Shown here one piece after another: positions 14,214 through 22,984 of a stretch of 64,000 nt of DNA. Made by a program: the position numbers and the translations under genes. Position 1 is the first letter of the stretch. Each line of letters begins with the position of its first letter. This stretch comes from Patescibacteria group bacterium (lineage in GTDB: Bacteria > Patescibacteriota > Patescibacteriia > 2-01-FULL-39-33): positions 21,785 to 85,784 of the forward strand of contig JBAZRV010000002.1 of assembly GCA_041662745.1 (NCBI GenBank), read 5' to 3'. The notes under the pieces were generated by a model, which saw only the letters and a program-made list of their open reading frames with translations, was not told the DNA's origin and searched no databases.

Positions 14214-14444
14214 TCAGCGATAAACTACGATGCGTTTTAGCTGAGTAAATGGCGGGTGATTATTTGTTTCTTGATCGGTTATTAAAGTAATTGCTTCGGA
14301 CTTAACCGCTAAGGCATTGCTCAATAAATCCATTTGTTTTATCGCCCATGCTTCTTGCCCTGGAAGAGTGCAATCGTAGACGACTATCAGTGTCTTGACT
14401 TTAAGCGGTTCAGGTTTTTTGTTCTCGGCTTTATCCTGCTCCAT
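14214..14444 (-). CDS. Hypothetical protein (76 aa)
   Basis: ORF with an upstream RBS-like GGAGGGAG; no recognisable motif. Confidence 0.4.
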   Translation of the reverse strand: MEQDKAENKKPEPLKVKTLIVVYDCTLPGQEAWAIKQMDLLSNALAVKSEAITLITDQETNNHPPFTQLKRIVVYR

Positions 14445-14471: not shown

Positions 14472-14948
14472 TTAATTAGGACTATTGGAAGTTGCTTCAA
14501 TCATGTCGGGTGGGTCGGACGGAATGTCGGGTGGCAGGGGGCCAGGTTTGAGCTCTTTTGAGAGGTCAACCGGTTGATCCAATCGGCAATTAATAGTTTT
14601 GATGGCAGTAACGATTTTCTTAACGGCTTTATCCTTGTCAAGTTCGGGAATGCGGTTGAGAAAGCACCATCGGGCGATTGCCTCTTCCATCCCTATTGTG
14701 CAATCTTTCGAAGGATTAAGCAGTTGGTCAATTTGCATCAGTGTTACCCTCTCCCCCTTGACCAGCTTATCAATCGTAGGGACGTTTGCCGTAAGGTATC
14801 CATTGTTGCTTTTTGTTGGACCAATCACTGAAATGTAAATCAGCAGAAAACATGTCATGCCTATGATCACAATTACAGTGGAAAAACGTAAGACCCAGAA
14901 AAAAACATCTTTCATAAGACTTTTCAGCTCCTTCGTGTAATTTTTCAT
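14472..14948 (-). CDS. Hypothetical membrane-anchored protein with Pro-rich C-terminus
   Basis: N-terminal TM helix; C-terminal PGPLPPDIPSDPPD tail. Confidence 0.45.
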   Translation of the reverse strand: MKNYTKELKSLMKDVFFWVLRFSTVIVIIGMTCFLLIYISVIGPTKSNNGYLTANVPTIDKLVKGERVTLMQIDQLLNPSKDCTIGMEEAIARWCFLNRIPELDKDKAVKKIVTAIKTINCRLDQPVDLSKELKPGPLPPDIPSDPPDMIEATSNSPN

Positions 14949-21380: not shown

Positions 21381-21390
21381 GAAAATAAAA

Positions 21391-21414
21391 ATCCGACGAG
21401 GCGAGTCGTCGGAT
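21391..21414. terminator. Bidirectional hairpin between rseP and the minus-strand 3-gene operon
   Basis: ATCCGACGA-GGCGAG-TCGTCGGAT; A-run upstream gives a T-tract on the minus strand. Confidence 0.6.
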
Positions 21415-21448
21415 CAATAAAGTTCTGTTGGCGTTACGGTTTGAATCC

Positions 21449-21796
21449 TTACATTATTGACGGTTTGAATCCTTCCATTATTGACAGTAGCCAGTTCACA
21501 TGCGCGGCCCACTCAGTGAAATCTTTCATCGTGATGCCGCGTGGCAGAGAGGTTGATTTCTCAGTAAGAGAAATGTAGTTGCTTAAGTTACCTTTTTGAT
21601 CCGATAGCAGTATATCTTCAATCGCTTTGATGGCTATATATGCCCTGGGTGACAAGGTGTTAGAGGAATTTATCAGTCTTTGTTCATTTTCCAGCTCCTT
21701 TTTTGTCTCTTCACAAGTTACTTGGTATGTTCTCATGGCATGCAAATGGTCCAGAAGCCGCCGGACAATCGTTACTTGATCCATGGTGGTAATCAT
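21449..21796 (-). CDS. Hypothetical protein; paralog of 21866-22165
   Basis: Start at the internal Met (MITTMDQ...) preceded by GAGGAGGAAATC; the ORF track extends to 21841 across the RBS. Confidence 0.5.
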   Translation of the reverse strand: MITTMDQVTIVRRLLDHLHAMRTYQVTCEETKKELENEQRLINSSNTLSPRAYIAIKAIEDILLSDQKGNLSNYISLTEKSTSLPRGITMKDFTEWAAHVNWLLSIMEGFKPSIM

Positions 21797-21865
21797 GATT
21801 TCCTCCTCTTCAGTTGAAGATCTCGTGTTCAATATAGGCAATATAAGCCCGTTCTAGCTAAAACT

Positions 21866-22165
21866 CTAACCAAGGCATGGAAATGGGCCTGACAACAGGG
21901 TGTTATAGACAAATGGTTTGATGAAATCAAACCAACCGATGAATGTCTTGATAGTATGCGTACTGTGGGTTATGAAACATTCGCTGCATAGTACTTCGCC
22001 GGTGTTGCTTCTTCCAATAAGCTCTTCTAAATGAAGGATAATGAGAAAGGCCTCATTTGAATAGCGCTTAGTTTGACCATCCATTATCTCATGGCTGTTA
22101 ATCAACTGCTCTAAGCGATGAACATACCGGCTAATTAATTTGGCCTGATCTATCGAGGTAATCAT
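21866..22165 (-). CDS. Hypothetical protein; paralog of 21449-21796
   Basis: MITSIDQAKLISRY... shares N- and C-terminal patterns with the downstream paralog; same AAGAGGAGGAAA RBS context. Confidence 0.5.
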   Translation of the reverse strand: MITSIDQAKLISRYVHRLEQLINSHEIMDGQTKRYSNEAFLIILHLEELIGRSNTGEVLCSECFITHSTHTIKTFIGWFDFIKPFVYNTLLSGPFPCLG

Positions 22166-22482
22166 GATTTTTCCTCCTCTTGAGTTGAGGTTTTGGGCAT
22201 GGCTGATTCCGCCGCTTTTATAATTTTTCGACTCTCAACGATCAAATGAGTAATCTGCTGAATGGTTGGAGCCTCTGTCGGACAGGTTAATTCGCAAAAA
22301 TAATTGAGATGATTAACGCACGCTTCGGCTAAAATGGAAAGTTTTTTCTCTGATCCGCTACCGCTAATGCCCTCAATTTTTGGCACCCCATGATTATCAA
22401 AAAGCTTACCTCGGCGCTTAAGACTAGTCAATTTTTTCAAAAACCCCTTGGCGATAATGATTTTATCAAAAGTGTCAATCAT
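22162..22482 (-). CDS. Hypothetical protein (106 aa), first gene of the 3-gene operon
   Basis: RBS AAGGAGAT; ATGA overlap with the next gene. Confidence 0.45.
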   Translation of the reverse strand: MIDTFDKIIIAKGFLKKLTSLKRRGKLFDNHGVPKIEGISGSGSEKKLSILAEACVNHLNYFCELTCPTEAPTIQQITHLIVESRKIIKAAESAMPKTSTQEEEKS

Positions 22483-22618
22483 TCATATCTCCTTATGGTT
22501 TTAAAATACTATTTTAAGGTTCATTGCTGATTGACTATGTTATCACGCCTTGTAAAGTTTGTCAAATTCACCTTGTAAATACCATTTATAATTCAGTTAC
22601 TGATTTAATACAATAAAT

Positions 22619-22984
22619 ATGAAAATAAGCCTGCCAAGCAGCCTCAATCCAATAGATGCCATTCGTCGTTGCGGTTATGGCCAAGTTTTAGATCGACGCG
22701 CCACCGAGCCAAGTTTTGCCCGCCGGCTGGGTACCGGCCTGTATCCGCGTTTCCATGCTTATATAAATCAAATCGGCGCCGGTTATGTGGTTAATCTCCA
22801 TTTGGACCAAAAGCAAGCGTCTTACGAGGGCACAGCAGCGCACAGCGGCGAATACGAGGGTGGGGCGGTTGAAGCTGAGGGTCGCCGGATAGCCGAGTGT
22901 TTGCAAAAAGCGGCAACGGAAAAATCAGCTCCGGCGGTTCCGGAAAAAGAGGAGAAAAAAGGCTTTTTCCATCGATTTTTCTAA
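22619..22984 (+). CDS. Hypothetical protein (121 aa)
   Basis: ORF divergent from the minus-strand operon; Gly/Glu-rich centre; no motif recognised. Confidence 0.35.
   Translation: MKISLPSSLNPIDAIRRCGYGQVLDRRATEPSFARRLGTGLYPRFHAYINQIGAGYVVNLHLDQKQASYEGTAAHSGEYEGGAVEAEGRRIAECLQKAATEKSAPAVPEKEEKKGFFHRFF

What the first reader, a model, noticed from the sequence alone, without database searches (positions are those of the whole stretch)
21438..22620. Orphan three-gene minus-strand operon whose two downstream genes are tandem paralogs sharing the same RBS-start context
Genes 22162-22482, 21866-22165 and 21449-21796 are tightly packed, with ATGA overlaps and short gaps. The two downstream proteins both start MIT(S/T)(I/M)DQ and share later patterns (AYIAIKAIEDIL~AFLIILHLEELI; FTEWAAHVNWLLS~FIGWFDFIKPFVYNTLLS). 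Their upstream DNA is nearly identical: CAACT(C/G)AAGAGGAGGAAA(AA)TCATGATTACC. A duplication therefore copied the RBS and start along with the gene. The first protein is unrelated, carrying GISGSGSEKK and Cys-rich segments. A bidirectional terminator bounds the operon, and a divergent 121-aa orphan lies upstream. No function can be assigned. The three small proteins have the size and paralog arrangement typical of toxin-antitoxin or immunity-type cassettes.
Basis: seen in the sequence. Interest (0 to 1): 0.55.

Follow-up and report, generated by a model that had tools for sequence, protein, structure and literature searches.

The report
Clade-restricted operon of small helical paralogs
This is a real, expressed-looking operon of three small, fast-evolving helical proteins found only in a handful of closely related Candidatus Buchananbacteria (CPR) genomes; two (probably all three) are old tandem duplicates, their function is unknown, and nothing supports calling them a toxin-antitoxin or immunity cassette.

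Summary
Three minus-strand genes sit at the stated coordinates: A 22482-22162, B 22165-21866 and C 21796-21449. A and B overlap by ATGA. A 44-46-nt block covering the RBS, start codon and first 8 codons is repeated before B and C, with 0 matches expected by chance.

B and C are true paralogs (profile-profile E 1e-8). A weakly shares their N-terminal helix (E 8e-4), so it may not be "unrelated".

The duplication is old. The same A-B-C operon occupies the same site (proS/121-aa gene | rseP) in two other Buchananbacteria genomes. Two co-occurring strains have lost B by recombination between the repeats, probably independently.

All three genes are under purifying selection (dN/dS 0.2-0.7). Their proteins nevertheless change about 4-25 times faster than the neighbouring housekeeping proteins.

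An exhaustive HMMER search of 1.84 billion representative proteins finds C only at this locus. Pfam, NCBIfam, PHROGs, PADLOC, PDB and Foldseek give nothing.

The toxin-antitoxin/immunity reading fails every testable membership feature except operon shape and fast evolution.

Best guess, with low confidence: the three proteins form a hetero-oligomeric helical bundle. A, with an invariant Cys/His cluster, would be the conserved core, and B and C would be partly redundant partners.

This is an ordinary kind of CPR orphan and of modest interest.

The parts
22537..22565 (-). Sigma-70-type promoter of the operon: TTGACA (22565-22560), 17-nt spacer, TG-extended -10 TGATAACAT (22545-22537).
   Evidence: 10/12 match, TG present. 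Both the -35 box and the TGATA of the -10 are invariant in all 5 related loci.
22489..22494 (-). Shine-Dalgarno AAGGAG of gene A, 6 nt before the ATG.
   Evidence: Read. AAGGAG is invariant in 5 loci.
22162..22482 (-). Gene A, 106 aa. It is the most conserved of the three (73-85% aa identity between loci). It has an invariant LFDNHG-P-IEGI-G loop and an invariant C55-x2-H58-x4-C63-x3-C67 cluster. Its disordered tail (..TSTQEEEKS) encodes the RBS of B.
   Evidence: dN/dS is 0.19-0.37. The AF2 model has pLDDT 63, with helices 4-20, 44-62 and 74-94 and a small hairpin at 28-35.
22144..22188 (-). Repeat copy 1: the A 3' end/RBS (TCAACTCAAGAGGAGGAAAAATC), the start codon and the first 7-8 codons of B (MITSIDQ).
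   Evidence: (D2, D3).
21866..22165 (-). Gene B, 99 aa, paralog of C. It has an invariant CxxC (C60, C63). Its start overlaps the A stop (ATGA). It is absent from two related strains and is not annotated in the NCBI record of this genome.
   Evidence: dN/dS is about 0.2-0.4.
21775..21817 (-). Repeat copy 2: a non-coding RBS block (TCAACTGAAGAGGAGGAAATC), the start codon and the first 7-8 codons of C (MITTMDQ).
   Evidence: The block is conserved before C in L009 and L010 as well.
21449..21796 (-). Gene C, 115 aa, predicted four-helix protein and paralog of B. It is the fastest-evolving gene of the three (39-68% aa identity between loci).
   Evidence: dN/dS is 0.29-0.71.
21436..21483 (-). Strain-specific 24-nt tandem duplication at the 3' end of C. 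The second copy carries a G>T change that creates the stop codon (..SIMEGFKPSIM*).
   Evidence: (D1). L001 and L003 carry a single copy.
21390..21415 (-). Intrinsic terminator hairpin followed by a T-tract, lying between C and the convergent rseP gene.
   Evidence: The hairpin is conserved, with changes in the stem and loop, in L001, L003, L009 and L010.
22619..22984 (+). Divergent 121-aa gene (O121). It is always next to the operon, conserved at 81-93% aa with dN/dS about 0.1, and of unknown family. A functional link to A-B-C has not been shown.

Best explanation
**Shown**
- This is a vertically inherited operon restricted to a small clade of Candidatus Buchananbacteria (Patescibacteria/CPR).
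- It is driven by a conserved extended -10 sigma-70-type promoter and closed by a conserved hairpin terminator.
- It encodes three small (99-115 aa) soluble proteins predicted to be all-alpha.
- B and C are ancient tandem paralogs.
- Each gene has a strong RBS, and A and B are translationally coupled.
- The proteins are under purifying selection but change about 4-25 times faster than the flanking housekeeping proteins.
- B is dispensable. Two strains have deleted it by recombination between the 44-nt repeats.

**Suggestive**
- A is a third, more diverged paralog. It shares the N-terminal helix M-I-x-T-h-D-(K/Q)-(I/V)-x-(I/L)-(I/V/A)-(K/R)-x-(F/Y/L)-(L/I) and a co-linear LS..A...h..(L/I)(E/N) helix.

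**Inferred**
- The three proteins are made together in similar amounts.
- They assemble, through their homologous helices, into a cytoplasmic hetero-oligomeric helical bundle.
- A is the conserved functional core. Its invariant Cys-x2-His-x4-Cys-x3-Cys cluster and DNHG-P-IEG loop are likely a metal or redox site. B adds a CxxC motif.
- B and C are partly redundant, rapidly diverging partner subunits.
- The ~45-nt block shared by B and C is kept by selection on translation initiation and on the N-terminal assembly helix, not by recent copying.

The cellular role is accessory and remains unknown.
For: **Real coding genes**
- The ORFs are maintained in 3-5 diverged loci.
- pN is far below pS: A 0.19-0.37, B 0.2-0.4, C 0.29-0.71 as dN/dS.
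- The promoter, the SD sequences and the terminator are conserved.

**Paralogy**
- B family vs C family: hhalign 95.5%, E 1.6e-8.
- B and C are reciprocal best hits in the six-frame window.
- A vs C: N-terminal match E 7.7e-4. A ranks third of 1071 segments for the C profile.

**Co-expression**
- A and B overlap by ATGA, and there is one promoter and one terminator.

**Conserved three-gene arrangement at a fixed site**
- L009 and L010/L012 show it.

**B is dispensable**
- L001 and L003 carry A-C only. Their junctions lie at different points inside the repeat.

**Fast evolution**
- dN is 0.42-0.57 for B and C and 0.12-0.22 for A.
- Across the same genome pairs, dN is 0.02-0.05 for ProRS, 0.007-0.02 for MreB and 0.05-0.10 for RseP.

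**Fold and location**
- The AF2 models are all helical.
- I saw no signal peptide or transmembrane segment in the sequences (read directly; no predictor run).

**Invariant residues**
- The Cys/His and loop residues in A, and the CxxC in B, are invariant.

**The repeat is under constraint**
- Its identity is equal within and between genomes.
Against: - Complex formation, metal binding and the roles of 'core' and 'partner' subunits are inferences from sequence only.
- The AF2 models are low-confidence (pLDDT 63-66).
- No structural neighbour reaches significance.
- The relation of A to B/C rests on about 29 residues.
- The family has only 3-5 sequences per protein, so 'invariant' residues are weakly tested.
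- No expression data are available.
- Fast evolution and loss of B would also fit a conflict-type (toxin/neutraliser) module or simply weak constraint.
Confidence: 0.35

Rival explanations
1. A toxin-antitoxin-like or toxin-immunity-like conflict module. A, conserved and carrying a Cys/His and DNHG site, would be a small toxin encoded first, as in higBA- or hicAB-type order. B and C would be duplicated, fast-evolving neutralisers, so that one of them (B) can be lost.
For: - Small co-translated genes with an ATGA overlap.
- The downstream paralogs evolve much faster than A.
- B has been lost while C is always kept.
- GC is lower than in the flanks, 0.37-0.43 against about 0.47.
- The operon is oriented opposite to most of the surrounding housekeeping genes.
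Against: - No match to any toxin, antitoxin, immunity or defence model in Pfam, NCBIfam, PADLOC or PHROGs. The only weak hits, Abi_alpha and PDC-S47, are seen in 1 of 5 C orthologues.
- No RHH, HTH or AbrB-type domain, and no inverted-repeat operator at the promoter.
- The locus is single-copy and syntenic in one small clade, and absent from viral contigs. That is unlike the patchy, mobile spread of TA and immunity genes.
- No toxin, Rhs, CDI or secretion gene lies within 10 kb.
- A appears homologous to B/C at its N-terminus, which is unusual for a toxin-antitoxin pair.
Confidence: 0.2
2. Exported or host-directed small proteins of an episymbiotic CPR cell. The shared N-terminus (MIT(T/S)xDQV) would act as a non-classical export or targeting signal, and fast evolution would reflect interaction with a host or a phage.
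For: - The N-terminal ~8 codons are far better conserved than the rest of B and C, and are shared with A.
- Nonsynonymous change is rapid.
Against: - No Sec or Tat signal, lipobox or transmembrane segment is apparent by eye in the sequences (no predictor run).
- No secretion-system genes are adjacent.
- The N-terminus is predicted to be the start of a long amphipathic helix packed in the bundle.
- The conservation also covers the untranslated RBS block, which points to translation signals.
Confidence: 0.08
3. Non-functional or decaying ORFs: gene-prediction artefacts or remnants drifting to loss.
For: - B is missing from the NCBI annotation of this genome and deleted in two strains.
- The window's B is unusually diverged: 43% identical to L009 and L010 B, whereas those two are 72% identical to each other.
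- C carries a fresh 24-nt duplication and a new stop codon.
Against: - Reading frames are intact in all loci despite 30-60% amino-acid divergence.
- pN is significantly below pS for all three genes.
- The promoter, the SD sequences, the start context and the terminator are conserved.
- Motif residues are invariant.
Confidence: 0.04

Closest known systems
Type II (including three-component) toxin-antitoxin operons
   Same: Two or three small genes in one operon with overlapping stop and start codons. They are accessory, and one component is dispensable.
   Different: There is no sequence or fold relation to any toxin or antitoxin family, no DNA-binding antitoxin domain and no palindromic operator. 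The locus is vertically inherited at one fixed chromosomal site in one clade, not mobile, patchy or multi-copy. The components look paralogous to each other.
Immunity-protein arrays of colicin and polymorphic-toxin systems (small four-helix immunity proteins such as ImmD or Im7/Im9, often tandem paralogs)
   Same: Helical proteins of about 85-115 aa, arranged as tandem paralogs and diverging fast. The top Foldseek hit of C is ImmD (1v74_B), but it is not significant (E 2.1, TM 0.36-0.45).
   Different: No toxin gene, secretion apparatus or mobile element is nearby. No Imm, SUKH or colicin-immunity Pfam model matches. The structural match is at noise level for a generic helical bundle.
WXG100/Esx-type paralog pairs
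   Same: Helical proteins of about 100 aa encoded as adjacent, co-translated paralogs. Such pairs are known to form heterodimeric helical bundles, which is the model for the proposed hetero-oligomer.
   Different: There is no W-x-G turn motif, no PF06013 match and no type VII secretion genes. Type VII secretion is not known in CPR (this last point is from my own knowledge).
Taxonomically restricted (orphan) small-protein families of CPR/Patescibacteria genomes
   Same: The genes are annotated only as 'hypothetical protein'. They are confined to a few MAGs from two or three samples, and are short and fast-evolving.
   Different: Unlike most singleton orphans, this is a conserved, syntenic operon. 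It has demonstrable internal paralogy, purifying selection and conserved expression signals.

Membership tests
Type II toxin-antitoxin module | At least one protein belongs to a recognised toxin or antitoxin family or fold. | tested here: not met
   Pfam, NCBIfam, PADLOC and PHROGs give nothing above threshold for A, B or C. PDB profile searches and Foldseek find nothing with E<0.1.
Type II toxin-antitoxin module | Small adjacent co-transcribed genes, often with overlapping stop and start codons. | tested here: met
   ATGA overlap of A and B, a 69-nt gap between B and C, one promoter and one terminator.
Type II toxin-antitoxin module | An antitoxin DNA-binding domain and a palindromic operator in the promoter (autoregulation). 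| tested here: not met
   There is no RHH, HTH, AbrB or Phd match. No inverted repeat lies in 22483-22640. Only a direct repeat, TTTACAAGG x2, flanks the -35 box.
Type II toxin-antitoxin module | Patchy, horizontally mobile and often multi-copy distribution. | tested here: not met
   The locus sits at one syntenic site in 5 related variants only. There are no further paralogs in the 64-kb window and none in viral contigs.
Type II toxin-antitoxin module | Toxicity of one component and rescue by its partner. | not testable with these tools
   This needs expression assays.
Polymorphic-toxin / colicin immunity cassette | Adjacent toxin gene, or toxin C-terminal domain with a trafficking or secretion domain. 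| tested here: not met
   The neighbours within +/-10 kb are mostly housekeeping genes: gyrB, a pilin, greA, pbp2, mreBC, proS, rseP, frr, holB, trpS and a glycosyltransferase, with a few uncharacterised ORFs and none with a toxin or secretion domain.
Polymorphic-toxin / colicin immunity cassette | Membership of a known immunity family. | tested here: not met
   No Pfam Imm, SUKH or colicin-immunity hit. The ImmD Foldseek hit has E 2.1.
Polymorphic-toxin / colicin immunity cassette | Tandem paralogous small genes with rapid divergence. | tested here: met
   hhalign for B vs C gives E 1.6e-8. dN for B and C is 0.42-0.57 across the more distant genome pairs.
WXG100 / Esx pairs | A central W-x-G motif and a PF06013 match. 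| tested here: not met
   No Pfam hit. There is no WxG in alignments A1-A3.
HNH / beta-beta-alpha-Me nuclease (a lead for A from the DNHGxP...G and CxxH patterns) | A match to an HNH-type profile, with D/H-H...N...H catalytic residues in a beta-beta-alpha fold. | tested here: not met
   None of the 5 A orthologues hits any HNH model, even at E<=10. The PDB profile search returns no nuclease, and the Foldseek hits are all non-significant (E>=1).
Abi_alpha (PF14337) / PADLOC PDC-S47 (weak hits of C) | A family match reproducible across orthologues and above the curated threshold. | tested here: not met
   The score is 13.9 bits against a cut-off of 29. Only 1 of 5 C orthologues matches in Pfam, and 1 of 5 in PADLOC.

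The most novel reading that the evidence does not exclude
This would be a previously undescribed, CPR-specific three-component conflict module. A would be a small Cys/His metal-dependent effector. B and C would be its paralogous, rapidly co-evolving neutralisers. The conserved 44-nt start-region repeats would act as recombination sites that change the number of neutraliser genes between co-existing strains, giving three-gene and two-gene forms in the same groundwater community.
Probability: 0.12. Interest if true: 0.55.

Novelty: new member of a known kind. Interest (0 to 1): 0.27.

Why it matters
**If the best explanation is right.** This adds one more taxonomically restricted small-protein family to the large uncharacterised fraction of CPR genomes. 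It is useful mainly as a clean, small example of how such families evolve:
- an ancient tandem duplication that retains a shared translation-start/N-terminal module;
- repeat-mediated recurrent gene loss;
- mosaic alleles among co-occurring strains.

**Practical corrections.**
- Gene B is missed by the NCBI annotation of this genome.
- Toxin-antitoxin labels should not be assigned from gene size and arrangement alone.

**If the conflict-module reading were true.** It would be a new defence or addiction family in episymbiotic bacteria. That would be of moderate interest.

Tried and rejected
1. **HNH-like nuclease reading of A**, from DNHGxP...G and CxxH. No HNH model is hit by any of the 5 orthologues at E<=10, and nothing appears in PDB.
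2. **Abi_alpha, PDC-S47 and phrog_2232 hits of C.** They are below threshold, and the two re-tested across the C orthologues (Abi_alpha, PDC-S47) are seen in only 1 of 5. These are chance hits.
3. **The 2099-aa hit P0011 in the exhaustive HMMER search.** It is a repeat lipoprotein whose 'ELAIKAIENVLKSD' unit matches about 25 residues many times over. This is spurious.
4. **L013, an Alphaproteobacteria locus found with A.** The match lies antisense to a glycosyltransferase gene. This is spurious.
5. **The SET-domain 'NHSCxPNC' resemblance of A.** E is 0.5, which is not significant.
6. **The terminator-like hairpin inside B (21914-21934).** It is not conserved in L010: -3.1 against -12.2 kcal/mol. 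This is chance.
7. **Gene conversion between the B and C start regions.** Within-genome identity (0.69-0.78) is no higher than between-genome identity (0.67-0.80).
9. **Charge pattern (basic toxin, acidic antitoxin).** The pI of A ranges from 5.1 to 9.1 among orthologues, so this is uninformative.
10. **Viral origin.** No relatives of A, B, C or O121 occur in IMG/VR.
11. **Literature.** Full-text search for 'Buchananbacteria' found 9 papers. Judged from their titles and the start of their abstracts, none is about this locus.
Full report
**1. What is in the sequence**

On the minus strand lie three genes:
- A: 22482-22162, 106 aa.
- B: 22165-21866, 99 aa.
- C: 21796-21449, 115 aa from the ATG that follows GAGGAGG. 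The longer TTG-initiated ORF is not needed.

A and B overlap by ATGA. B and C are 69 nt apart.

Upstream of A is a sigma-70-type promoter with an extended -10: TTGACA at 22565-22560, a 17-nt spacer, then TGATAACAT ending at 22537. Downstream of C is a hairpin followed by a T-tract (21415-21390). It sits between C and the convergent rseP gene. Only the minus-strand side has a canonical T-tract, so 'bidirectional' is only partly right.

The surrounding genes are housekeeping: gyrB, greA, pbp2, mreD/C/B, proS, then the divergent 121-aa gene O121, then A-B-C, then rseP, frr, holB and trpS. Most run on the other strand. GC in the operon is 0.37-0.43, against about 0.47 in the flanks.

**2. The repeat**

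The block TCAACT[C/G]AAGAGGAGGAAA(AA)TCATGATTACC..AT.GATCA.G occurs exactly twice in the 64-kb window. The copies are at 22144-22188 and 21775-21817, 369-371 nt apart, with 0 matches in 100 shuffles.

Before B, this block is the 3' end of gene A. The predicted disordered tail ..TSTQEEEKS* encodes the GAGGAGG RBS. Before C, the block is non-coding.

**3. Paralogy**

Window B against window C alone is weak: 29% identity over 42 aa, E 0.001. Orthologues recovered from related contigs (see section 4) gave a 5-sequence C alignment (A1) and a 3-sequence B alignment (A2).

- hhalign gives 95.5% probability and E 1.6e-8 over 83-94 columns. This covers the N-terminal helix, the EAF.II.HLE / RAY.A.K.IE helix, the conserved Gly turn and the F..W helix.
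- In a six-frame translation of the window (1071 segments), the C profile's best non-self hit is B (E 0.0024), and the B profile's is C (E 4.5e-4). There is no other paralog in the window.
- A is the third-best hit of the C profile (E 0.17 for the set, about 1.6e-4 per sequence). hhalign aligns A residues 1-29 with C residues 1-29 at E 7.7e-4. A relaxed alignment also lines up KKLSILAEAC with ..LS.RAYLA at the same residue numbers.

So A is probably a more diverged third paralog, or at least shares the N-terminal module. I rate this as suggestive, not shown.

**4. Distribution**

The family is extremely narrow.

- The word-indexed search of 5.8 billion proteins found only two relatives of C (67% and 60%), none of B and four of A (73-85%).
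- An exhaustive HMMER search of 1.84 billion representatives with the C profile found only this gene, two orthologues and one spurious repeat protein.
- Pattern scans with A found only one true locus among one genome from each of 185,579 species, a Candidatus Buchananbacteria MAG. They found the same four loci in JGI metagenomes.
- Pattern scans with A, B, C and O121 found nothing in IMG/VR.

The contexts are strictly syntenic.
- L009/L008 (a 958-kb contig) and L010/L012 (Ca. Buchananbacteria SO_2016_GW1_112) carry O121 | A-B-C | rseP. B overlaps A by ATGA, or GTGA in L009.
- L001 and L003, from the same metagenome as the window, carry O121 | A-C | rseP.

NCBI names the window's genome 'Patescibacteria group bacterium' and annotates A, C and O121 as hypothetical proteins. 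It skips B.

**5. History of the locus**

Both B and C orthologues exist in L009 and L010. The duplication therefore predates the split of these genomes. The three-gene state is ancestral, and the two-gene state is a deletion.

blastn shows that L001 and L003 lack exactly the ~329-371-nt unit between the two repeat copies. The junctions differ:
- L001 switches to C-type sequence right after ATGATTACC.
- L003 keeps the B-type codon TCG (MITS) before switching.

Two independent repeat-mediated deletions are therefore likely.

The repeat is no more similar within a genome (0.69-0.78) than between genomes (0.67-0.80). Its persistence reflects constraint on the RBS, start codon and N-terminal module. 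It does not reflect a recent copy or gene conversion.

The window's B is unusually diverged. It is 43% identical to L009 and L010 B, which are 72% identical to each other. This fits relaxed constraint on B in the sub-clade that elsewhere lost it.

The A 3' end occurs in two haplotypes that do not follow the rest of the gene. L003 is identical to L009 over 46 nt, which indicates recombination among strains.

The window's C carries a private 24-nt tandem duplication with a new stop codon.

**6. Are they genes?**

Yes.
- Nei-Gojobori dN/dS is 0.19-0.37 for A, 0.2-0.4 for B and 0.29-0.71 for C. pN is well below pS.
- Frames are intact in every locus.
- The promoter (-35 box and TGATA of the -10), the SD sequences and the terminator hairpin are conserved.

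They do evolve fast. Across the win, L009 and L010 genome pairs, dN is 0.42-0.57 for B and C and 0.12-0.22 for A. Across the same pairs it is 0.02-0.05 for ProRS, 0.007-0.02 for MreB and 0.05-0.10 for RseP.

**7. What are the proteins?**

No library recognises them.
- Pfam, NCBIfam, PADLOC and PHROGs give nothing at or near threshold.
- The weak Abi_alpha and PDC-S47 hits of C are not reproduced in 4 of 5 orthologues.
- PDB profile searches give nothing.

The AF2 models are helical and low-confidence:
- A: pLDDT 63, helices 4-20, 44-62 and 74-94, plus a small hairpin at 28-35.
- C: pLDDT 66, four helices.

Foldseek against PDB and BFVD has no hit below E 0.5. The ImmD and HepT hits are at noise level.

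I saw no signal peptide or transmembrane segment in the sequences (read directly; no predictor run). Invariant features are LFDNHG-P-IEGI-G and C55-x2-H58-x4-C63-x3-C67 in A, and CxxC in B. An HNH-like reading of A was tested and not supported.

**8. Interpretation**

*Shown:* a conserved, co-translated, clade-restricted operon of paralogous small helical proteins, fast-evolving but under selection, with one dispensable member.

*Inferred (confidence about 0.35):*
- The three proteins form a hetero-oligomeric helical bundle.
- A is the conserved, possibly metal- or redox-binding core.
- B and C are partly redundant partners.
- The shared start block is retained for translation and for the N-terminal assembly helix.

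*Toxin-antitoxin/immunity reading (about 0.2):* it fits the operon shape, the fast evolution of the downstream genes and the loss of B. It fails every other testable feature. There is no family match, no DNA-binding antitoxin domain or operator, no toxin or secretion neighbour, and no mobile or patchy distribution. Toxin and antitoxin would also have to be homologous to each other.

*Export/host-interaction reading (about 0.08) and junk-ORF reading (about 0.04):* both are less likely.

The remaining probability is 'some other function'.

**9. Novelty and interest**

The protein families are undescribed and confined to about five variants in two or three environmental samples. The kind of object is ordinary: a taxonomically restricted small-protein family in a CPR genome, expanded by tandem duplication.

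The micro-evolutionary detail is neat but not surprising. It includes the retained start module, recurrent repeat-mediated loss and mosaic alleles among coexisting strains. Interest is 0.27.

The most novel reading that the evidence does not exclude is a new CPR-specific conflict module whose neutraliser copy number varies by recombination at the repeats. I give it a probability of about 0.12.

Noticed in passing
window 21436-21483: There is a 24-nt tandem duplication (TCAATAATGGAAGGATTCAAACCG x2) at the 3' end of gene C. The second copy has a G>T change that creates the stop codon, so C ends ..SIMEGFKPSIM*. The related strains L001 and L003 have one copy (..SVMEGFKP*).
   Followed up: yes
L001:762-855 and L003:881-974 compared with window 22120-22215 and 21751-21844: Two strains from the same metagenome lack gene B. 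Their A-C junctions cross over at different points inside the 44-nt repeat (L003 keeps the B-type codon TCG). This suggests two independent deletions.
   Followed up: yes
window 22162-22215 (A 3' end); L003:881-930; L009:6272-6321: The 3' end of A comes in two haplotypes: PKTSTQEEEKS in the window and L001, and PGNPTEEEKKS in L003 and L009. L003 and L009 are identical over 46 nt, although the rest of L003's A is closer to the window's. This points to mosaic alleles and recombination between strains.
   Followed up: partly
window 21866-22165: Gene B is not annotated in the NCBI record of this genome. Locus tags WC668_01480 (C) and WC668_01485 (A) are consecutive. JGI and ENA gene calls include B.
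   Followed up: yes
window 22548-22556 and 22571-22579: A direct repeat TTTACAAGG flanks the -35 box of the operon promoter. It is kept in the close relatives (L003; partly in L001 and L009) but not in L010. It could be a regulator binding site.
   Followed up: partly
L010:5745-5870 (between O121 and the A promoter): L010 has a ~120-nt insertion that the other loci lack. It is bounded by a 12-nt inverted repeat (GTCATTCCGACC ... GGTCGAAATGAC) and looks like a miniature inverted-repeat element.
   Followed up: no
window 22619-22984 (+): The divergent 121-aa gene O121 is well conserved (81-93% aa, dN/dS about 0.1). It has an invariant RRCGYGQ..DRRATEPSFARRLG..LYPRFH.YINQ..NLHLDQKQASYEG..AHSGEY core and a C-terminal KKGFF.RFF. 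It has no Pfam or PDB match, and its wider distribution was not determined.
   Followed up: partly
window 14472-14948 (-) and about 14214-14444 (-), from L005:17218-17952: This is another small cluster in the window oriented against the prevailing direction: a 158-aa and a 76-aa gene, neither with a Pfam hit on record.
   Followed up: no
L008:6318-6623: In the 958-kb contig, the B orthologue starts with GTG. It was not called by the gene finder for that record, although the same DNA in L009 was called as a 101-aa gene.
   Followed up: yes
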